Source: Lytechinus pictus
Taxonomy: Eukaryota
Length of the DNA: 64,000 bases
Assembly: GCF_037042905.1 (NCBI RefSeq)
Contig: NC_087251.1
Location: 10,046,001-10,110,000 of the forward strand
Direction: 5' to 3'
Shown: piece by piece, positions 26,401-55,500 of the stretch
Position numbering within the stretch: the stretch's first letter is position 1
Layout: each line of letters begins with the position of its first letter
Made by a program: the position numbers and the translations under genes
Notes under the pieces: generated by a model
Databases searched by the model: none
Seen by the model: only the letters and a program-made list of their open reading frames with translations
What the model was told of the DNA's origin: nothing

Positions 26401-29400
26401 ATATTTCATGTTACACCTGTGACACTGTTTGACTTGAAACTTTTACAAATTACATACAATTTTGTGACACTTTACTTCTTGTAAAGAGTGTTCTTTAAAA
26501 CTATTCAATTTTTATCACTTAAAATTTTATGTAAATGTATACAACTGGAGTGATAAAACTATAAACCCTCAGATTTCTACTTTTATCAACACTCTAAAAT
26601 GCACATGTATAACATGAACTCGGAGATCAACTTACCTCTTGATATGCTTCCTCTTTTTCTCTGAGTTTACGTTCAAGTTTCCTCTTCTCATAATCTTCTT
26701 CTTCTTCAAGACGATCTCGATCCCCATCTCTGTCACGATCACGATCCCGATCTCTCCCTCGCTCGCGGTCATAGTCTCGATCGTAGTCTCTGCTTCTGTC
26801 GCGTTCATACCTGTAAATATATTTCATAACACTGTCATTTCAATCAAGAAAATGCTTTTTGTGGCTTTAAACAGAAAACACACAAAATTCTCTTCTAGGC
26901 TTAACAGTCCATCTTAAAGATATGAAGATTTAGCAAATAAAACCAAAAAAAATCACAATACATTTTTTCTGCAAATTCATCTTTCAATCTCAAAGCACAA
27001 GGGGGCACTTAAATAACATAAGTTTTCAAATGCAAAAACATAACCAACCAGCCCTATGATAATTTCTTATCTGATGGAGTAAACTACTCAAAATAAAAAT
27101 TTGAAAGCACAAATATATCTCAACCTCATGAACTTTAATTTCATACACACTAACACATATTCATACCATAAATCATGCAGAGAAAGCATGAGTAATGAAT
27201 TATCTTACCTCTCTCTTTCATCCCGTTCTCGTTCTTCTCTGATCCTTTCCCGCTCACTCTCTCTGTGTCTGTCTCGTTCTCTGTCCCTGTCTCTCCTCTC
27301 ACGTTCCTTGATCTGTTCTCTCCTCTGCCGATCCCTCTCTCGTTCCTTCTCTCTCTCCCTCCGGCTCTTCTCCTTCTCCTCTGGAGTCTCCTTCTGTTCT
27401 AGTGCTTCCCTCTGATCCTGTAGACAGCAAAATAGGAAATAACAGCTATGTGTAGTTATCTAGTATAAAACATGGTGACATTGCTTAGATCTAATGGGGT
27501 ATACTTAATAATTAAAACCACTCAGTTGACACTTTAAAGGGTAATTATCCTCACATCTTTACAGGGTTCTACAATGTTTGCTGACACTGTAAGTCTGTAA
27601 TATAATTTGTTAGTGTATCTTGTGGTAACAATATATGCATCAACAGACCACAAATTACACATTTTGTTATAGAGAATGTTCCACATGGAACTACAGTCTA
27701 TCAGTGATGCATCAATGCCACAAGTGCACATGAAAAGAGCATGGGCAAATGGTATCTGTATTAATCCTTTTGTGCAAGTACAATAATATCCCTTTAAGTC
27801 AACTTTCTATGGTATGGGAACACATAACATGTAGTATCCTAAAATTATGTTTTCTGACAGGTATATTAACAAATGCTAAGGTATCAAGGGAATTAATCCA
27901 ACTCAGATTCTAGCATGGATTGAAATAAATTTGAGTTTGGAAATGCAGTGCGCAGTCTGTTAAAAATAAAGTTTGTTGAAATAATTCCAAAAGGGCAAGA
28001 TCAACAATCAAATAGAATGAACCAGATTTTCAGTACACTGGAATCTTGTAAAAAAAAGTAACTCTTTGGAGATCTATATATTAATTGGTGCAAGTTTTTT
28101 TAGTATGAAAGATCAAATTTGAATATGTGGATGAATTCCCTTTTCACAAAGACAAATAAGAAATATTAGTGAAATAAAAGCTACTACGTAAACAGGTCAG
28201 GGAATATAGACAATGCTTCACCAGCCTTCTCCATGAATTGCTGCCAATTTTTCTTCTCTTTTTAAATAATTAATCAATTGGCACCCTGCATTGGCTAATA
28301 GTGTCACAAATCATAGAAATTTAAATATCTAAACAAAAAAGAGCTGTGATCTGTCTTACATCCCCTGGCCTACCAAGGCAACATTTGGACCTCATCCAAT
28401 TACAAAACCTATTTCCATTGGCAATGCTTGTCCTGCTCCTGCTCCTCCATGAAGTGACCTTTTCCGCTGGAATCCAAGGCTTGGCTGTAATCTCTGCTAT
28501 TTACCCCATCATTTCCAATATATTCATCAGAGCAGTTCGTGTAGCATTACAGTTAAGTCAGTTTTCTTTTCTTTTTTTTAATACTTAACTATCATTGCCA
28601 CTTTTGCAGAGGGCTGCTAGCTTGTAGAAATGAAAATGACTGATGATAAATGTCTCCAAATGTCAACATTCAGTATCAGAACAATTGGAAAGCAGTCTCG
28701 GTCCAGACAGGATTCAATCTTGGAGAACTTGAAGGCATGGCGGAAGACTGCTCCATGTCGCAACGTTGACTCCGATGATTGTAGCTTGACAGGACCAATG
28801 GATAACTCAATGTGGAGAAGGTCTCAAATATTGCCTTGCTTTTACATTAAAACAAACTTAAATCATCAAAAGGAGGTACATGGGGAGAGCATGCAGTACA
28901 CATCATTTCATCAATCAATGTCTAACAATAAAGGGATGAAAAGGAGAACACCTCAAACAATAGCTATATCATCATATTCAAGCAAGAACTTACAAAATGT
29001 CATCTTGCTTTAACAGTGCCTTGACAAATCTAAGATTATCAGGTGCAAGTTTTGTGTAAAATGCTCTGAACTGCCCAAAGACAAAAATGGCAATTAACTT
29101 TATCATATTTCAATTTCAGGATAGTTTATGAAGCATAAATAAATTCAATGATCCTTGCTAAGTCTGTGCTGACATTTTTCTCCAAAATACAGCAACAAGA
29201 TCAATCTTAAATGAAATTTGAATATATTTTTGCATTTTTCCCCCAAGGTCTGAAAGCCTGCACCATTTTGAGAACTTTGGGCATAAGCACAGGCACATAT
29301 AAATACATACATATTCACCAAATCAATCTTATAAAATAAAAAGCAACAGTGAAATGAAACAGCATAAGTAATGAAAGCTACATTGTATTGACTTGCGCAT

Positions 29401-32400
29401 TACAGTGACATCTTGGGAATCTTGCTCGGACTGGATGGAACTTCAACTTCTCTGCTGGCGAGCTTCTCAGGCCTGACAATTCATCGCATGATTGTCATAC
29501 TACCATGTGACTTGTCACATGACACATATGTCACATATGATCATGTAACTAACTTAGTAAACATATTCAATGCCAACTAGATCATTTTCATTAAGTGAAA
29601 TTATTCAAACAAGGTTTGAAATTGAACGTGATATATAATTGAAGAGGAGATGACCAAATTGATGAAACAATGTTAAACATATTAAAAAAACATGTCTCCA
29701 CTAATAGAATATTACAAACAAGAAAAACAAATAATTAAACATTAAAAATACACCAAAATTTTGAAGAAAAAAAAAGATCACGAGTAAAGCCTTTTATGAA
29801 AAAAATATTGACATAGGACATACTTAAGAACCTATTTTTTTCATCTCTTTTTTGCTAAAAATATATATATAATTTGTTCTATCTGTGAATATCTATAGAA
29901 AGGAAATAAACGTAAAATGACTTGGGGATCGATCTACAAATAAAATGAATATCTGAATTGTACAGATAACTAATGTTCATCCCCTAAAGATGAGTTTGAA
30001 TTTAAGAGTAATAATAATCCAAAATGTCAAATTTTATCATTACCAGATGAGTAAAAATGGTAAAGTACACACATACACTTGTACCTTCATTCTCAATAGC
30101 TTTCCATTAGGTCTTGAACTGATAGTATGTCATCCTGTTAATGAAATAGATACTAGTTAATTATACACCACAATCAAATACATTCCACATACCTAATTGT
30201 ACAGCATCCTCATCTGTTGGATCAGCTTCAATCAGCCCAATGATACACATCCAATACCATCAAAGTTATTTTAGTGTAATTTAACATTTCCTCTCCCAAG
30301 AATAAGTCATTTACTGTCCTTTACAACGAAACAAAATATTTACTAATTTCATTTTATAAAAAAAATCCCATTGGCAACACGGAGCTAAAATATACAGTTG
30401 CAAGGTAAATCAATGTACAGTGCCCACCACCTAAAAAATAAACCTTTAAATAATTAGCATGAATAAAGTAATAAAACATGATAAAAATGAATTGCATATA
30501 ATTAAACATAATAGGACAATTGATTAAAAGAGCATGCTGTCTATCAAAGAAGTCTACAGTTTCATAAACATTTACAGAAGATAAAGGATCCACATACCTG
30601 TCAATTTTAAGGTCCAAAATACCTTCCATATCCTGCAATAAAGAGATCTAATTGATTTCCTAACCAAAATAGAAAGATATCAAGTACTCACCCGTGATCA
30701 AACATTAAAAATTGAATCAGACGCAGGCTGCAGCGACTATCACGCCCCCTGACGTAGGCCCAAGCCATGGGGCCGTTGAAGGAGTACTATAATAATCATG
30801 GCAGGGGTACAATTGTTGCAATGAGAAAACTTATTTTTATCACGAATTAAATTCAAGCACACATATGTCTACTAGCCCTGATATGTTGATCTAATTGTTA
30901 TTCTCATCATCGTTATGATACCCTCTTTCAAAAATTCCAAAATTATTTTGATACCCTCTTTCAAAATTTCCAAATTCTTGAACAAATAATGCCAGCAAGA
31001 GCTAACAACCTGGTAATAATAGCTCGCTACATACATCCCAATACAAACAAATGTAATAAAAAGGATCTATAATCCTCTCATTTCTGTGTTATATAGGAGT
31101 GCAGCCGATCTCTGCACACAAACCCAATCAAATAACAAGTTTCTGAAATAAATTTTCATATGGATTTTTCGCTTTTGATGAGTTTTGCTCCAGGTTGTTT
31201 TTTTTTTAATTCCTGATGAGTCTTTATCTTCTTACATCCATTTTCCACTTATTATATGTTAATAGAAAAGATAATATGGGGGCAACAGCATCCTGCAAGA
31301 TGAAAGCAAAGGTAAAGAACATGATTTATACAAAGATAACTTTAATTCAATAAAATCATTGAGAAGGACAGGAATGTCAATCTTATGGTGTATTCTTACC
31401 TTATATGATTGTCTGAAACGATCAATCTCACGGTTTATGAGATCTTTCTTCTCTTCCTCTAAATTCATGTCATCAAGCTTATCCTGCAATTAAATGAAGA
31501 ATTAAGGAAAATATTCATAGGAAACAACAAGCTATAGACCAATGGCTATTGAACTTTGTAAACACATAAGCAAATCTATTTAAATGAATATGAAGATAAT
31601 TCAAAAATAGGTTTCATTGAACAAGACAGTTAAAGCTGTCCCTATTAAAAAGGCAGATTTGTATTCTCATGTCTCTCTCTTTTCTGCTACAATTTGTCAA
31701 ATCATTCCAAACTGTTGCCTCAAATCTTACTTAAAATGAACGCAACATTATATTTCTAAGTAATGATTACATACCAACTGAATAAAGTTGTATATAAATG
31801 TGGATATTCATTTTTACATTCATTAAACAGGTGTTTCATAAGCTCAAAATAATAAGCAAGCCCAACAAGCTCGACTCACAACAACTCTGACATGATTCAC
31901 TGGTTTATTTTTTTTTCAATCTCACAAGAATGTTGTGAAGCATATAAATGTGACATTCTACAAACATACGACAAACATTCAACTTAATTTTATATTTGCA
32001 AGCCAATATAGGTTTGGTGCATATTACATGCACTGGTCAAAGAAATGGAATCAGTAAAAATCTGTCACTTCTAATACATGAATCAATGAAATAGCCAGGT
32101 AGATCAGGAGAACGACATACCTTAGCCTTTTGCTTCTCATCTTTTTGCGTCTGCTTCTGCTTCTGAACACCATGGAAGGGCTTCTCTTCTGGTGCTCCTG
32201 AATGACCAAAAATAATGCTATCAGGAACACACATAACATAAATGCAAACAACAATACAGCATGACAACTACAGGTTATCTTTTCTATAATTATGAAGTGT
32301 CATGAATATGAGCAAAGGGATTTCTCCCAATATGACAATTATTCTCAAACTACTTTAAAATAGTCATATGTAATTCATATACAAATTCAATCAGCAATTA

Positions 32401-35400
32401 TGTGGGATATATAGGACCTGCAAATCAGGTTGCTGCCCCATTAAAAACTAATGCTGTCACGATGAATCATTTAAGCTATATATCACTGTGCATCCTTCGT
32501 TAATACTGTTCACCTAGCAATCAACAGGCCTTAAATTTTCACATTTTCATGGCAAGGCTACTTCTCATTAGGGCACATTTCTACAATACAGCACAAATGA
32601 AAAATAAAAGATGACACAGCAAATTTCAAAGACCATTGAAAGGGGCATTAATGTTAATCAGAAGGGCATCCAAAGGACAGATCTTTGATGGCCTTGGTAA
32701 GCCCTGAATCAAAGAGCCTGTACATTCACATATTTATACCTGGTGCTCTCTGTAGCTGTGAAGAGTAATCATGGATAAGTCTACGCATGTAAGTCCTGAC
32801 TTCAGCATCTTCCCTCATTGTAGACTCATCTAGCTCAGATGCCTGGATAGAAAGAAAGTGCATGACTGGTGCTTTAGGGAGTGGTGGAAATAAGGCATAC
32901 CTGAAAGTGCATGTGATTTCCATACAGCGGGGTCATGTATTTGAACCATAACAAAGCACTGGCATCCTTTGGCAAGTTGTCAATCTAAACTTTGCCACTC
33001 TCCACCCAGGAGTAGATGGGATACTGATGTAGCTGTGTGGTAGATACTATGGTATCATTGCTATAAAATGGTAACAATGATAAATCTGAAGTGTCATGAG
33101 CATCACAAGGCAGCAGATGCTACGGTAATTCATGTATTCATTATTTTGATAAATCATTATCATTATTTTGAAAAATAATTACTCTTATTGTTTTGAGATA
33201 TCATAAAAGGATATTCCTTACCTGATCTCCCTCCCTCTTCTGTAAATATTCATCAAGAAGTGTTCTTGTTTTGCCATCAACTTTAACCTGAACAATAAAT
33301 TAAAAATGGAAATGAAGTTTCAATGACAAAGAATCATAATATGTATGAATTAAATAAAATAAATAGGAAACATATATAGGCTGTTATACTGCCTGGATAT
33401 CTGGATACAGGGCGGGAGGAATAAACAAATTCCTTGAAATGATAGACAGTATAATACATTATGAAATAATTGATTTTTCAATTATTTCAAAAAAGGCAGT
33501 TCCTTTCTTGCTGCAACAAGCTTTGCAATATTATCCTTTTCTGTATTGTTGTTTATATTGTAGTTTACTTACTATTTTTTTTCAACTTTTACTGTTACAA
33601 TACTGTCATGTTTTTTATTACAAAGTGAAATAAATCTCAACTGAATTGATTTGAATAATCATGCATTCTATTGAATTGTGACTGATACTAAGTGTACTAC
33701 TCTGATAACCCTGTACATACGCATATGTACAATTTAAAAAGTTATATGTAAAGACATAGTTAAGACGTTTTCTTACCAAAAGTTTTTTATCTCCTATGTC
33801 AAGTTCATGAAGTAGACGGATAGCTCTAAGACTTGCATCTGGGTCTCCATACTCACAGAAACCAAAGGCTTGTAGTTTTCCCGATGCTCCTTGTACTCTC
33901 TTCCAGCTCAACACCGCACCACATCTCTATACATTGTTAACAAATAAATTGCTCAACACCGCACATCTCTATACATTGTTAACAAATAAATTGCTCAACA
34001 CCGCACCACATCTCTATACACTGTTAACAAATAAATTGCTCAACACCGCACATCTCTATACATTGTTAACAAATAAATTGCTCAACACCGCACATCTCTA
34101 TACATTGTTAACAAATAAATTGCTCAACACCGCACATCTCTATACATTGTTAACAAATAAATTGCTCAACACCGCACATCTCTATACATTGTTAACAAAT
34201 AAATTGCTCAACACCGCACCACATCTCTATACATTGTTAGCAAATACATTATTCAAAGGTTTTACAATCATGGCTAATATGTGATACAAAGGGGTTTCAG
34301 GGAGTTTTTATTTCTCATACAGTACAACAGGTATTTGGTGTGTATACCCGATTTGTATTTTTAAAATTGTATTTCCAGACAACATAGCGATTTAAATAAA
34401 TTCTGGAAGCAATATTTCATAAATTGTCACATTGTAATGTTGGATAAAATGACTGAGAATGAATGTCCACAATTATCTGTGCTATTTGATGAAAAGAAGA
34501 GGTACCAATAGCATTTCTGTTTGTTCAGATACCATTTCCTTTATTAAACTACTCATTTGACAATCATCTCAAAAATGATTAAAGTGACAAGTGGAATATA
34601 AAAGAATATGACCTCAAATATTATATACATTTGGTGACAATTATTTTATACAGGTAATTCCATATAATATTCAACCTTTTTATATAAAAATTTAAAAGAA
34701 TTACAACTTTTCATATGAATAAAAACAGGAAGATCCCACTCATACGTACTTCATGGAATTGCCCTTATCCATTGGTCACTAAGTTCCTACCCCCCCCATC
34801 ACCCTCCCCTCTCCCTCCAATATTCCATGCCCCTAGTCCAACACAAACACTACTCACTATGAAATGAACATAGAATACAAAATCATTGAATCATATTAAT
34901 AGCTATATGAAATACTTACACCAAGTAAGCCTCTAATAAGTGTATCTGGTGCACGGTCGGAAATATTCCCCACAAAGACGGTTGTCTTGGGTTTATTTGA
35001 ATCTTCAGTCCTTTCTTCCTTCTGAAAAATAAAGCAACAATATTGACTTCATAAAAGACATGAAATATTGCACATTTAAAAAAGCTGATTACCCAAATAT
35101 TTACACTCAATCAAAGATCATGGATCAATTGCTTTTATAGTCAGAAGTATTTGTGGGATGTAAAAATTACCAATTGATAAGGTTTGAATATGTAACTTTG
35201 CCAGGGTAGAAAAACCTTGTACTTTAAAAAAAAATCACTTTTTTAATTCCTTTACCATCTCCAAGTGATAATGTGTGAGAATCCTAGCTCTTTATAGGGT
35301 TTCACATTGGATAGAGTGTTATGTTGGCTGTATTTTTTATTTCTCTCTCTCTTGTAGATAAAAGGTTTTGCTCACACAAGCAGTGATAAATCAGTCAAGC

Positions 35401-48821: not shown

Positions 48822-51311
48822 CATTCACTTTGTACACGATTAAGGGATTTTGATGAGAAAGGCTGCATTTTGAGGCCGTCACATGAAATGCCCTAAATTC
48901 ATTATTTTTCCACTATTTTGAGTCAAAATTTTTTATGAATACCTGTCTATGTATTGCATGTGTAAAGTCTGTGTTCGTTGCGTATCTTCTTTTAATAGAA
49001 TCGCGCAGATAAGCGAGTGCGCAGACAAGGGGGGCTGCGCAGACTTGGGGGAACTTGCCATAAAGTCAATGGAATACAAAACCGATTTTTGTGACCATTT
49101 TGAACCCAAGTCTTCAACAGGCTCTAACTTCTTTGTTTTTTTAGCCCTTTGAAGTAATGTAGGTATCAATGGAAAGGTGAAAGAAAGCTCAATTGATGTG
49201 TAATCATGTCACTTTGTAATTTTTCTTCTTAATATGTGTAAAATAATTTCTTCTAATTTTAATTAATTAGGCAAATTACGGAAAATAACAATTACTCGCC
49301 TGTTTTTTTGCCAAATGAAAGTGATCATGATAGATAATTTATATAATTTAGTTGGCATCAAAACAGCATCATGTAGAGAATTTCCTAAATTAATTTGTTT
49401 AAAGTATTGTTTTTGTAATTTCTAATGTATTTCTTTGCTTTTCTGATATAAATTACAAGCTCATTTTCAACTTTAGTATTGTATACCGGTACAGTATGTA
49501 CGGGGGTCTTTTTTTACATATGAAAATTATCATTCCTTTTGTACTTTGTATGACCAAATAAAAATACAAGTATGCTATTTTCTGATGTATTTGATTGTTT
49601 CACCGATTCCTTATGTATTCTATTACTTTCAACAATTTGTTATACATAATATGTAGCTTTTGAGTTTAGAGACAATGTACATTTGATTACAATTTTTTTC
49701 GGAGGGATGAGCAGCTGAGTGTGAAATACATGTATGTATGTAGCATTGTATGCAATTTATTACAAGTATCAAGAAGTGTAAAAATTAAGCTTTAATATAT
49801 TCTATCGGTTTTCAATGCATTTCTTAGATTTGTATACATGTTCATTGTATAACAAAGGTCCTGTTTGAGCTCTCTTTTTTAAGAAAAATAAATAAATTCA
49901 GATTCGAGAGTGAAATCACTGCACATAAATGTAGGCCTACATAATTTTTACACATACTTCCATATTGTTATGAAACAGAACAAAAAAATTTGCAAGATTT
50001 TGTGTAAAAGAACTTAACAATCCAAACTTACCAATCTCCCCATGGATAGGCGTGAAATGCACCAAATTATTAGTTGAAGCAAAAAAGAAAAGGAAAAGCG
50101 TGGTCTATTTCTTTCAAAACAAAACAAAAAACAACCAGGAAAAAACAATGTAAATAGTTACATTTACATTGTAGTTTACTGACAATTGACCTCGCCTTCA
50201 TACAAAAACATATAGGTCTAGACTTTGTTAGATACCGCTGAAGTGGAAACATTTTCATCCTTTAGAAGGAAAATCCTACTGAAAATGAAATGAAACATTT
50301 TTTAACAATGAAAAACAAGAATGAGAGAAGCAGACAAGTGAATTCTAATCATAATCAGACAAATAATGATTATAGATTTAGGAAGTTGTAAATAGTATGT
50401 ATTCCTTTCTAATTAGCTAAAAAGGTAATGTTATTGTGATGTAAGGTAGAGATAACTCCAATTGCTTCTACACACAACTGACTATAATGCAATATTTTCA
50501 AAAGATTTGATTAGTAGGCATACTATAATTTTCTTACATGAGATCGTATGAAAACATGTGATATGTGTTGTACCTCACATATATCCTAGCCTGAGGGTAG
50601 CTGCTTCTAAAGGAGAAAGCCAGAAATTTCTGTTTATTAAGTACATGGTAAATGAGAAAATGGTCCTTACCATTTGTTACAATCTACATACCAAGTTGCC
50701 AATTTGATAGTGTTAATTGTCTCATTTTTTTAAACAGTCAACTTTATTATACCTTTTCCAGCTTTCCATCAAACTAATAACCCTATATTTTTAATGCAAA
50801 TCATTTATTACCAGTTGGGTTCCTTTTTAATTTCTACAGTATTCTAATTTTTTAAATGGGTAATCAGTAATATATATTTTTTTTCTCTCTTTAGAGTTTA
50901 ATATTAGTTTAAGTTAAGTTAGTTGATCCCAGTTGAAACCAATGACAAGACAGTTATAACTTATTTGCTGACCAGAAAATTTTCCAGAATTTTCCCATAC
51001 TATAGGACACATAGCATCGTGCTAACAAGATCCAGCTTACTTGTGTATTCATTAAGCCAACAAGCCTCGTAATCGCAACTCTTTTCATTGACCTGTTTCC
51101 ATATGAAAGAATACACCAATACATATAATATATGTATGGTCCTTATGTGATGAATACTGCTTATGCTTTGATCTCATTGTTACTATGAATGAATTATCCT
51201 AAAGCTGTCACTCTAAAAGTAATTATGTTAATCTTTCTGCAGCTGACTGCTGACCTATATATGTATTTTAAAGCTTTGCTCTTTTTATTCTATATAATTT
51301 ACAGAATCAAA

Positions 51312-52527
51312 ATGGCCAAATTCATCACACCTGTATCAGAGACAAGAGAAAATGTACAAAGATTAAAAGGGGACTACCGTTATGGACATTTTGAGGTCAT
51401 CCCAAACCTTCCAACCTCAGGTCCTGCCCAAAATTCTGAAAAGCATGTCAGGACTTATTTCAATAACAAACAAATATTCCGAACCATTTGTGAGTGGTTT
51501 GAGGTCTGGATGCCATGGCAGAGGCGCATTGTTCTCTGTGGTACTACAGATAGGTGTTCTACATCTCAGCTTGAGTATCTTGCTACAGCCTTAGAACCAG
51601 TGTTTCACAGGGACTTCCAGACCTCCCTGAGAGGGAGCTATCCATCACTGACCTCCAGAAAAGTGATCCACACCAATGAACAATGGGAGAGAGCAGTTAA
51701 AATGGCAGATTCTGATTTGAGTATTGTCTACACTAAGAAAGAGAGCCAACCTTTGTCAAACAAAGAGTTACATTCTGTAAACACATTTGCTTTAAAATTT
51801 GTCAGTGGTGTCATTGCTGAAGCAGTTCAGATAGCTGCAAGAAAGGATGCAGAAGACAGTTCTGGTGTAGACTCTTATGATGACAGTCAGAAATCAAAGG
51901 GCAAAAAAGGACATCAGAGAAAGCCTTCGCCAATAGTAGAAGTCCAAGAGACCTCACCCATTGTAATTGAGAGTAATGGATCTCGTACCTTGAGCCCAAC
52001 TACTAGTCGGTCACAGCAAAGTGGATGTTCATCATCTTCCAAAGACACTTTGCTGAAAGTTCCAAAGAGTGAAAGGACCAGTTTCTCTGGCACAAAACAC
52101 AGCACAACTTCCAGTCAAAGAGATGGCCTTCTGTTTATAGAGCGGAAGAGTGTTGACACCTCATCTTTCGTCAACCAAATTAATTCTTCCGCTCACCCCC
52201 TTGAGTCTTCCTTTTCTGCAAAGCCATCAGAAAGGCGAAAAACAAAGAATCGATCAATGGCTTATAATCAGTATTTCTGTGGACAGGAGGATACAGGCTT
52301 AGTTGATCAGCATCACTTGGATGCTCTACCACCTCTTGAGGCCAAAAAGGTGTCCACTTTCAACTGGTGTATGAGTCACAGGGTCACACCTTCTGCAGGG
52401 TCAACTGTAGCTGGATCAGCAGAAAGCCATAGAAGTAAACTACACAAGCACACCAAGACCTATCCAACCCCAGGAAGTGCAGCAACCACAACAGACTTCT
52501 TTGATCGCTCAAAGATACAGAAACTAG
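51312..52527 (+). CDS. F-box gene coding exon 1 (MAKFITPV...KIQKL)
   Basis: Acceptor TTTACAG ends at 51304, ATG in AAAATGG context, 1216 nt open, donor GTAAGA. Confidence 0.85.
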
Positions 52528-55500
52528 GTAAGATATTTATGTAAAGGTATCCACAACCAAAATCCAAATTTATTCATATTGGTTTGAGTGAGATATGGAT
52601 TACATGTACCTTTATGATGGTTGGGGTCTACAAGTTTGGAAAACATTTTATAAGAATGAGAAAAATTCCATGAAGTATGTACATATTTATTTGAATAAAC
52701 AAGTAGGAGTTGTAAAGCATCGCAGGTAATCAATTGGTATTTGGCTTAGCACGGGATGTTTTGTTTAATTGTTGAAGTGTAGTGAAGAATTAAGTGAATA
52801 GCTTCATGTGTGTATTATTCTGAAACTATGTGTTAATTTGTGTGTTTGTTGAGATTCCTTGAATATTCTGAAAGAAGCAAACACAATAATTATCATGACG
52901 TGATTTATTGATTTTTATTCTTGAATGCAAGTACTTGTTTAATGTGAAAATGAATCCTTGGATTTATTTGCTGTGGCATATGCTTACTGAAGATTTTTAT
53001 CTTTTATATTGTTATCCATATGCTTAATAAAATTAGAAAATATCCATTAACTAATGTCATTCCATTTATCAAGAGGTTTTTTTTCTTTAATATGTTGATA
53101 CAGGTGCAATGAAAGGGGTTTTACGTACAGGTCATATCAACAAGCCACCCCTAGTTCAAGATCTGTACATCCCTGTCCAGAAAACTTTCAAGCCAAGCAA
53201 GTGGTGGACACCTAGACCTGTAGTGGTCCCTGCAAAGAAGCAACAACTGAGGGCAGCATTCAAGGATCAGTTGGAACAGATATGGATTGTATGATAACTT
53301 TTCTTCTGATTATTTGAATATACTTTGCCATTTGAAATTGATTCTCTATAAGTATCTTGATTCACTGTCCCTCTGTGGATTATTTATGTAGTTTGCTTCT
53401 CTGAATGTTGTCGAATCATAAAGATATCTCTACAGGAAACAAAATTAAGTAGTAGAGGACTTTTATTATTTTATTTGGCATAATATAAAATAAATCATTT
53501 ACAGTGATAAAAATGATTGTTACAGTAACACAAAAAATATTTAGATACTGGATTCATCTGGTTGAGCTGCCAGGCATTGGGTAAAGTTAACAAAGTAACT
53601 ATAGTCCACCCTAACCCATACCCCATCCAGGTGAATCCAATGTAGTATTTTAATGTGACATAAACATACCATGCATTTGCATGTAATATATTAGGCCTAC
53701 ATATAACAAAATGTTGAATTGCTCAGAATCTAAAGCTTCTATTGAGAATGCAAAGCTTTGTAAAGAAGTTGCAAAAGATCTTAAAATATATTGTTATCTC
53801 CTAGAACTCTTATTATTTTTTTAAATCTTTATCATAATATCAGATTTTAGATATCAAATATCTTCAGATTTATGATTTTAAACAGACTTGTGAAGTGTTG
53901 AACTATGATAATTGCTTGGGAATCAAAATTGTCCTGCCCAAAGTCCCATGGTTAATGCTGCCTTCTTTGCAGCCATTGCAGTTTTTCAAACCTTCATGCA
54001 TTGATATCGGTTTGGTATTCTGAAATGCTGTTAAATTTTTGTTATAATGTTTTTGTTTGTTTTCATTTTACAGTGGTTGAAAGAATGGGAAGACCATGAG
54101 AAAGGGGATCTTTTAGTTGAACTCATCAAGATGTGTGACCAGGAACTTATCAAGTTCTTTGCTTCCTGCCTCACCAAACGGTAGGGATCATTTTAAGAGA
54201 TGAACTACAACATACAGCCCAGAATATTATTATTCATTCAGAATCTGTATCTTGTAGTGAATCAAAATATATTAAAAAACAATTTTGATAGTCATCATGA
54301 TGTAAACAAAATAGTTTTCTGATCCATGGATTGTTTTATTGTCATGAAATTCAAAATACAAAGCAAACTTATTGCCCACTGGAATTAGTATTAAATCAAG
54401 TGCATTCGTCAATTATCAATAGAACACATAATGCCACCCTTAAGTATCCTATGAATATTGTTCTTCTTTTATTCATTTATGATACCAATCGATATATCCT
54501 TTACTAATGATCTTAACCCTAAATTATATAATGAAATTGTCTAACAAGATTTAGGTCCCATGCTTATTAATTTAATAGTATGAAGTAACATCATATAGAA
54601 CAATTCTAATATGTTTATTGCTTTATGAATTATTTATTAATAATGATGGCATGCATGCATTTCCTCTTTGAACTGAAACCGATGTTCAGGTTACATCAGT
54701 ATGTGAATTGGTATGTGACATATTTATTTGCATGTTTTGTGATTGTACAAAAATTATTTTGATTAATCTTTCCTGACTGCTTTTTGTGCCATTGCTTATT
54801 GCAAGAGGGTTTTTGGTATTGCCGTTTTGTGAAGCTAACAATGATTATTATTTAGAAGAAAGAAGTAGTTCTAGATAAGGGATGTACAGAGAGATAATCA
54901 CCCCCGGGACCCGTTGCATAAAAGTTACTATTATGGTAACGTTGCCATCCAATGGTAATTACCATGGTAACGATGATCATCAGACTAAAGGATTCCATGA
55001 AAGATACCATTGGATGGCAAAGTTACACTGTACCATAATGGTACCTTTGATGCAACAGGCCCAAAGGGCCATCTACCCTGTAACAACAGGGTAGAAGAGA
55101 CAGTGTGTGAGAGAGTGAGGGAAGGAGGGAGGGGAGAAGGAGGTAGAAATTAAGGATATAAAAAGGCAGCGCTTTCTCACTCAGTTCGATAGCGAGCTTT
55201 TGTGTGTGTGTGTCTTGTGGAAACCCAGAGAATGGCAGACTTCAGTCATTTCCAGTTATTTATAAAAAAATTAAAAAAGTATCTTTTGCACTGCCTTCGA
55301 ACAATTAACTGCACTCTTATGTTTTGCATGGTGGGTTGTGTACTGCTGACTAATATTTTTTTCTTCATTATATTTTTTAATTTTTTACTTGCCCTCACCC
55401 TTTTTCTTTTCTTGCTGTGCAATCTCGTCTTTGCATTTGATGAATATACATCAGTATTTACTACTGTGTGATAATTTTTTTTAAAAGCAGTTTTATGTAA

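What the first reader, a model, noticed from the sequence alone, without database searches (positions are those of the whole stretch)
30598..30786. Two candidate frameshifting (poison) exons in RBM25 intron 9
Seen on the minus strand: exon A 30786-30692 (95 nt, TATAG acceptor, GG|GTGAGT donor) and exon B 30632-30598 (35 nt, TTATTGCAG acceptor, CAG|GTATGT donor). Either alone joined to exon 27417 reads ...ATC AGA GGG AAG CAC TAG, an early stop far upstream of the last junction. A+B (130 nt) also shifts the frame. Established: SR proteins and RBM39 autoregulate through poison exons. Inference: an autoregulatory NMD switch located between the RRM and the RE/RD domain.
Basis: partly seen in the sequence, partly recalled or inferred. 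Interest (0 to 1): 0.7.

Follow-up and report, generated by a model that had tools for sequence, protein, structure and literature searches.

The report
Retained RBM25 intron with poison exon
In some samples this sea urchin's gene for the splicing regulator RBM25 leaves its 4-kb ninth intron unspliced, and related urchins splice into a conserved stop-codon exon hidden inside it, which likely forms a self-limiting off-switch that vertebrates appear to keep at the same intron.

Summary
Both candidate exons are present as described, but RNA data support only part of the picture. The 3,982-nt intron after coding exon 9 is selectively retained: contigs cover it in 5 of 5 contig runs (one only partly) while neighbouring introns are empty; 3 shallow raw-read runs show almost no intron reads, so retention varies by sample. 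Exon A's acceptor (30786) is real: it is spliced in a close relative and in an old S. purpuratus RefSeq model, whose tail matches two different window frames (DNA kept, frame not). Its donor and both exon B sites showed no joint in 8 runs; an unlisted donor at 30193 did. Read-through of exon A stops at 30690. Of 120 short RBM25 homologues, 77 leave the protein at this same junction, including a vertebrate RSYGD-stop isoform, and human and mouse RBM25 detained introns flanking a 61-nt gap are listed in a published supplement. Best reading: a detained intron with a decoy/poison exon, as in SF3B1 or SRSF5. NMD and autoregulation are untested.

The parts
31400..31483 (-). Coding exon 9 of RBM25 (84 nt, aa 238-265), phase-0 donor AAG|GTAAGA
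   Evidence: Exact match to P0004; joints 32121->31483 and 31400->27417
27418..31399 (-). Intron 9 (3,982 nt), selectively retained in some samples; single copy; no sense-strand AATAAA
   Evidence: Contig cover in X15, X1, X5, X9 (whole, in pieces) and X10 (27418-29653 only), flanking introns near zero
30717..30786 (-). Conserved GC-rich core of cryptic exon A, starting at the used acceptor 30786
   Evidence: Joint 31400->30786 in X9; S. purpuratus P0010 tail matches 10/12 and 10/10 residues in two frames; 63% GC against 33% for the intron
30692..30786 (-).
30688..30690 (-). In-frame TGA overlapping the exon A donor; ends the frame after 32 new residues when 30692 is read through
30598..30632 (-). 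Exon B candidate (35 nt); good splice motifs, no joint seen
   Evidence: no joint in 8 runs
30187..30195 (-). Cryptic donor TAG|GTATGT (last exon base 30193), spliced to exon 10
   Evidence: Joint 27416/30192 (cut +1), X5, depth 10
30193..30786 (-). Inferred long decoy/poison cassette (594 nt) between the two sites seen in use; the two joints come from different runs, so the joined form is not shown
   Evidence: Inference; stop at 30690
31253..31312 (-). Second cryptic acceptor region (first exon base 31292), apparently conserved in another urchin; use not seen
   Evidence: Score 11.1; read-through tail of Logan protein P0001 resembles this stretch
27209..27417 (-). Coding exon 10, start of the RE/RD region

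Best explanation
Intron 9 of this sea-urchin RBM25 gene is selectively retained in some samples and hides a conserved cryptic exon whose acceptor at 30786 is spliced in related urchins, and it likely works as a detained-intron switch in which that exon acts as decoy and poison exon to limit full-length RBM25. Shown: clean skipping gives the 809-aa protein; whole retention stops at 31261; splicing into 30786 with read-through stops at 30690; a donor at 30193 can join exon 10. Inferred: the weak acceptor and three strong donors (30692, 30598, 30193) engage the real splice sites without finishing, so the RNA stays partly spliced in the nucleus, and the fraction that finishes goes to NMD. Inferred and least secure (about 0.55): RBM25 itself, a U1-associated inclusion factor, favours the cryptic exon and closes a negative feedback loop.
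For: Retention: X15 one contig 27410-31086 (depth 12.1, downstream spliced exons 36.5), X1 three contigs (11.8-24.9 against 135.6), X5, X9, X10 likewise, with introns 8 and 10 at depth 0-0.7 and intron 7 covered only at a repeat; rough intron/exon depth ratios 0.04-0.47. In X9 the depths balance: 16.7 spliced into A + 6.65 unspliced, against 20.2 downstream. P0010 (S. purpuratus XP_786257.3, 285 aa) ends with exon 9 joined to exon A; 20 of 22 aligned residues are identical but split over two window frames, with the stop at the same TGA, whereas coding exons 1-3 and 6-8 are 77-78% identical. No sense AATAAA (4.0 expected, P=0.018; 37 of 1000 shuffles). Of 120 listed homologues of 156-499 aa, 48 read on with Val (GT read-through), 29 have another short tail, 4 end at the junction, 19 continue, 20 lack exon 9. 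RSYGD-stop occurs in mammals, a bird and teleosts. Boutz 2015 supplements list human and mouse RBM25 high-coverage introns of 551 and 529 nt followed by a 61-nt gap. Model: PMC6097662.
Against: Three raw-read runs of one study (X19-X21, about 6% of each read) show almost no intron reads; by hand table 2, 30% retention would have given roughly 10 and 17 reads in X19 and X20, so retention there is low. Each cryptic joint rests on one contig in one run, both in organism B; none was seen in organism A (5 runs). The A-to-30193 cassette was not seen as one molecule; in X5 the part upstream of 30193 looks unspliced. Contig depth is a poor measure of level. Organism B differs by 3.6-5.5% over the intron with no neutral-intron control, and only 40 of 220 difference rows were shown, so no conservation peak was measured. 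The homologue count is biased by the length filter and by gene models that may stop before the low-complexity exon. Orthology of the Boutz intervals to this junction was not tested. No nuclear, NMD or binding data; the G-rich core scores only 1.08 in G4Hunter and lacks CGGGCA.
Confidence: 0.68

Rival explanations
1. Classic poison cassettes: A (95 nt) and B (35 nt) are included as discrete exons and the products are removed so fast by NMD that they are not seen; retention is a by-product.
For: Both donors match U1 at 7/9 and 8/9 and B's acceptor scores 9.4; all combinations give early stops; A's acceptor is used; NMD targets are rare without NMD inhibition (PMC6097662).
Against: No joint at 30692, 30632 or 30598 in 8 runs; X9 runs through all three in one contig. 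P0010 stops before the A donor, so it does not test it. No conservation evidence for B.
Confidence: 0.15
2. The intron is simply slow to splice and the cryptic joints are splicing noise or intermediates with no regulatory role.
Against: Frame-independent conservation of exon A with S. purpuratus; the same junction is the exit point in 77 of 100 homologues that have exon 9; AATAAA depletion.
Confidence: 0.09
3. Exon A is an alternative last exon or the retained RNA is translated, giving a functional RRM-only RBM25 of about 290-300 aa.
For: Short proteins are annotated in S. purpuratus (285 aa) and mammals (294 aa), and the vertebrate tail RSYGD is constant.
Against: The urchin tail is not kept in frame or length (25 against 32 aa); no AATAAA in the intron; contigs run on into exon 10; the exon A peptide has no real protein relative (3 hits in 1.84 billion, all with many repeated stretches; two read and found to be tandem-repeat ORFs).
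Confidence: 0.08

Closest known systems
SF3B1 intron 4 decoy exons and the OGT, ARGLU1, DDX39B decoys (Parra et al. 2018, PMC6097662; parts 1-3 of 6 read, 4 supplementary files searched)
   Same: Splicing-factor gene; one intron over 1 kb retained while neighbours are spliced; conserved cryptic exon with early stop; leaky joints to both flanking exons; several alternative donors; partial retention of the downstream part.
   Different: Decoy action, nuclear location and U2AF binding were shown there and are untested here; RBM25 was not found in the searched supplements; here the host is an echinoderm.
SRSF5 intron 5 unproductive splicing (Lareau and Brenner 2015, PMC4379411; passages read)
   Same: Poison exon plus retention at one intron position kept across animals, sea urchin included; stop after the RRM part.
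   Different: Different gene family. DNA similarity between urchin and human was reported for SRSF5; for RBM25 it could not be tested. RBM25 does not occur in that paper's main text.
Human and mouse RBM25 detained introns (Boutz et al. 2015, PMC4281565; passages and Data S1, S2 rows seen) and the 294-aa RSYGD isoform (UniRef100_A0A2K5DJH3)
   Same: Retained intron with a small exon about 530-550 nt after the donor (613 nt here); mouse span 3.3 kb (4.0 kb here); protein stops a few residues after the exon-9 junction.
   Different: Listed only as table rows; RBM25 is absent from the main text and from Table S2. That the listed intervals are this intron is inferred from geometry and recall, not tested. 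Vertebrate gap 61 nt; urchin exon 95-594 nt with other sequence.
RBM39 and SR-protein poison-exon autoregulation (PMC10477243, search listing and abstract start only)
   Same: Splicing factor limited by an early-stop exon in its own pre-mRNA.
   Different: Self-binding and NMD are shown there, not here; here retention is the main form seen.

Membership tests
Detained intron with decoy exon | Intron over 1 kb retained in otherwise spliced RNA while neighbouring introns are removed | tested here: met
   5 of 5 contig runs (X10 partly); not seen in 3 shallow raw runs
Detained intron with decoy exon | Cryptic internal splice sites with joints to the flanking constitutive exons | tested here: met
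   31400->30786 (X9) and 30193->27417 (X5), one contig each; P0010
Detained intron with decoy exon | Cryptic exon conserved as non-coding sequence and carrying an early stop | tested here: met
   20 of 22 residues over two frames against S. purpuratus; stops; DNA itself not aligned
Detained intron with decoy exon | Retained RNA is nuclear, polyadenylated and not an NMD target | not testable with these tools
   No fractionation or NMD data
Detained intron with decoy exon | Removing the cryptic exon or its splice sites lowers retention | not testable with these tools
   Needs a minigene
Autoregulatory poison exon (AS-NMD) | Cassette seen with both joints in one transcript | tested here: inconclusive
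   The two joints come from different runs; no joint at 30692, 30632, 30598
Autoregulatory poison exon (AS-NMD) | Stop more than 50-55 nt upstream of the last junction | tested here: met
   All 11 non-skipping isoforms modelled stop at or before exon 10 of 19 coding exons
Autoregulatory poison exon (AS-NMD) | Isoform rises on NMD inhibition | not testable with these tools
   No such data found
Autoregulatory poison exon (AS-NMD) | [quoted passage not shown] | not testable with these tools
   Only indirect: G-rich core, G4Hunter 1.08, no CGGGCA; RBM25 binds an rG4 near a BCL-x 5' splice site (PMC10639069 abstract)
Intronic structured ncRNA (C/D snoRNA-like) | Rfam match or folding beyond shuffles | tested here: not met
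   No Rfam hit on exon A at E<=10; z -0.07 to -0.34

The most novel reading that the evidence does not exclude
RBM25 carries an ancient homeostatic switch at one fixed intron, just after the RRM half and before the RE/RD region, kept from protostomes through echinoderms to mammals as a detained intron with a lineage-specific decoy/poison exon and driven by RBM25 itself: a second SRSF5-like case, in a U1-associated factor, catalogued only as stray table rows and odd short isoforms.
Probability: 0.5. Interest if true: 0.65.

Novelty: new member of a known kind. Interest (0 to 1): 0.5.

Why it matters
RBM25 is a dosage-relevant global splicing factor and the effector of the dCasRx-RBM25 tool (PMC12699894 passages). 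A conserved retained intron with a decoy exon would explain how its level is set, recast the annotated 285-300 aa 'isoforms' as unproductive RNAs, and point to a site where antisense oligonucleotides could raise or lower RBM25, as reported for other decoys (PMC7373989, listing only). It also adds an invertebrate deuterostome case for dating decoy-exon regulation. The mechanism class is known, so the gain is a new gene and its depth in time.

Tried and rejected
Rfam scan of 27000-32000: 6 weak hits, none at gathering score or on exon A; a C/D-box-like reading of exon A was dropped. Folding: exon A z about 0, B region z -1.5. Own-genome searches: exon A region and whole intron single copy. No run is on record as an RNA holder in the index; the contig runs are taken as RNA because they hold GT-AG joints and lack the flanking introns. 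X10 has no cover above 29653 and X5, X9, X10 lack the upstream exons: holes may be filter effects and were not used. Protein search with P0010 aa 246-285: 3 candidates, none passing. Exon A peptide against 1.84 billion representatives: 3 repeat-type hits. Metagenome scans: a 22-mer gave 0 hits; an 18-mer gave 110 loci, none similar to the intron or to RBM25. A Pfam scan failed on coordinates and was not repeated, so domain names rest on precomputed PF00076 and PF01480 for P0002/P0003. Ten literature searches (RBM25 with poison exon; detained intron; autoregulat+nonsense-mediated+intron retention; retained intron+isoform+NMD; ultraconserved; unproductive splicing; a six-term feedback search; G-quadruplex/CGGGCA; plus decoy exon; sea urchin+poison exon) listed no paper on an RBM25 intron-9 switch. 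RBM25 passages in PMC13561874, PMC7733475, 10.1101/2025.04.25.648738, PMC12699894, PMC3620060, PMC5431906, 10.1101/2021.08.13.456151 and PMC11336944 do not describe one; the PMC6547761 supplement has no RBM25. One RBM25 paper sought by recalled id was not held; subscription papers and bioRxiv supplements were not visible and may bear on novelty.

Full report
Setting. The minus strand carries RBM25. Nineteen coding exons match the L. pictus protein XP_054758948.2 (P0004) in exact peptide runs (names), so the window is a Lytechinus pictus-type genome. The flagged stretch lies in the 3,982-nt phase-0 intron 31399-27418 after coding exon 9. The first coding exon has its own acceptor, so counting from the transcript start would give a higher number. 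Direct splicing 31400->27417 is seen in X19 (2 reads), X20 (2 reads), X15 and X1.

Observation. Coordinates, motifs and frame arithmetic are correct. As sequence alone the two exons are not beyond chance: 3 donors at >=7/9 U1 match against 2.4 expected, and A's acceptor scores -0.1 on a small gene-derived matrix, below all 18 constitutive acceptors (5.1-15.1), with 63 sites in the intron as good. What stands out is that all three strong donors sit within 500 nt (30692, 30598, 30193) and that the first 70 nt of A form the most GC-rich window of the intron (40 of 60 bases; 0 of 300 shuffles reach it, though introns 12 and 17 have richer windows).

RNA evidence. Eight of the 21 listed runs were laid. 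In the five contig runs the intron is covered while introns 8 and 10 are empty: X15 by one 3,677-nt contig, X1 by three, X5 and X9 in pieces end to end, X10 from exon 10 up to 29653 only. Crude intron/exon depth ratios run from 0.04 to 0.47. Two cryptic joints appear, both in organism B, a coded close relative: 31400->30786 in X9, followed by one contig from 30788 down to 27605, and 30193->27417 in X5. In X9, 16.7 (spliced into A) plus 6.65 (unspliced) roughly equals the 20.2 downstream. No joint was found at 30692, 30632 or 30598. Against a constant high retention, the three raw-read runs (one study, about 6% read, 0-5 reads per junction) have almost no intron reads; retention therefore varies by sample.

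Consequences. Skipping keeps the frame open. Use of 30786 with read-through of 30692 meets TGA at 30690, giving 297 aa, whether the rest is retained or closed at 30598 or 30193; whole retention stops at 31261 (311 aa). All lose the RE/RD and PWI parts. The intron has no sense AATAAA (4.0 expected from the other introns, P=0.018), as expected if it must be read through as part of a transcript.

Conservation. The old S. purpuratus model XP_786257.3 (P0010, 285 aa) ends with exon 9 joined to YSFNGPLAWAQVFASGGVIVAAACA. Its first 12 residues match the window from 30786 (10 identical) and the next block matches a different window frame from 30752 (10 of 10), with the stop falling on the same TGA at 30719-30717. 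An 8-nt indel is inferred. DNA kept without frame is the mark of a non-coding constraint, and the model shows independent use of the same acceptor. Organism B differs from the window by 3.6-5.5% across the intron and 0.5-2.3% in exons; no neutral control or per-site profile was available.

Other animals. A search with P0010 aa 80-285 limited to 156-499 aa gave 201 hits, 120 listed. Of the 100 with an exon-9 match, 48 continue with Val and a short non-charged tail (38 Logan-only; named ones include deer, monitor lizard, Lingula, a woodlouse, a crab), 29 have another tail, 4 end at the junction and 19 continue into the charged region. The tail RSYGD-stop (or SSFGD, TSYGD) recurs in several teleost orders, a bird and mammals, which implies a conserved vertebrate cryptic exon at this junction. 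The length filter selects truncations, and genome-based models can end here by error, so these counts show a hotspot, not a frequency. That the Logan proteins come from spliced RNA is inferred from their continuous frame over several exons on contigs of a few kb.

Literature. Boutz 2015 lists RBM25 high-coverage introns in human (73566458-73567008 and 73567070-73567421) and mouse (85001628-85002156 and 85002218-85004928), each pair split by 61 nt, without mention in the text; their identity with this intron is inferred. Parra 2018 defines the decoy model. Lareau and Brenner 2015 show the position-conserved SRSF5 case. Chlamydomonas RBM25 has a regulated early-stop alternative 3' site, position not checked (PMC7534427 passages). 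RBM25 is described as part of a U1-associated complex (PMC7733475 passages) and as binding an rG4 near a 5' splice site. Ten searches found no account of an RBM25 intron-9 switch.

Mechanism and verdict. Shown: selective, sample-dependent retention; use of acceptor 30786 and donor 30193 in relatives; early stops; frame-free conservation of exon A. Inferred: decoy action, nuclear detention, NMD of completed cassettes, feedback by RBM25. It works like the SF3B1/OGT/ARGLU1 decoy introns; membership needs the fractionation and minigene tests. New member of a known kind, interest 0.5.

Noticed in passing
window 33906-34250, minus strand: A 42-nt x 8 tandem array repeats the acceptor and first codons of RRM exon 5 eight times; use of any of the 7 upstream copies would hit a stop after 13-14 codons. 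Could be an allele, an assembly error or a further unproductive site.
   Followed up: partly
window 20531-20454, minus strand: A 78-nt in-frame exon is alternative in both L. pictus (P0004 against P0005) and, by length, S. purpuratus (P0007 against P0008) models.
   Followed up: no
window 30134-30085, minus strand: A further candidate mini-exon (50 nt, acceptor score 8.0, weak donor) with an in-frame stop at 30095; no joint seen.
   Followed up: partly
window 30171-30380: X5 shows extra contig depth here (28.4 against 10-13 beside it), just upstream of donor 30193; the listed contigs do not fully explain it, so another acceptor or allele may exist.
   Followed up: no
window 32960-33015: A dispersed-repeat fragment in intron 6 attracts many foreign reads.
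   Followed up: no
window 51189-52544, plus strand: A 451-codon stop-to-stop frame of a neighbouring gene, not identified.
   Followed up: no
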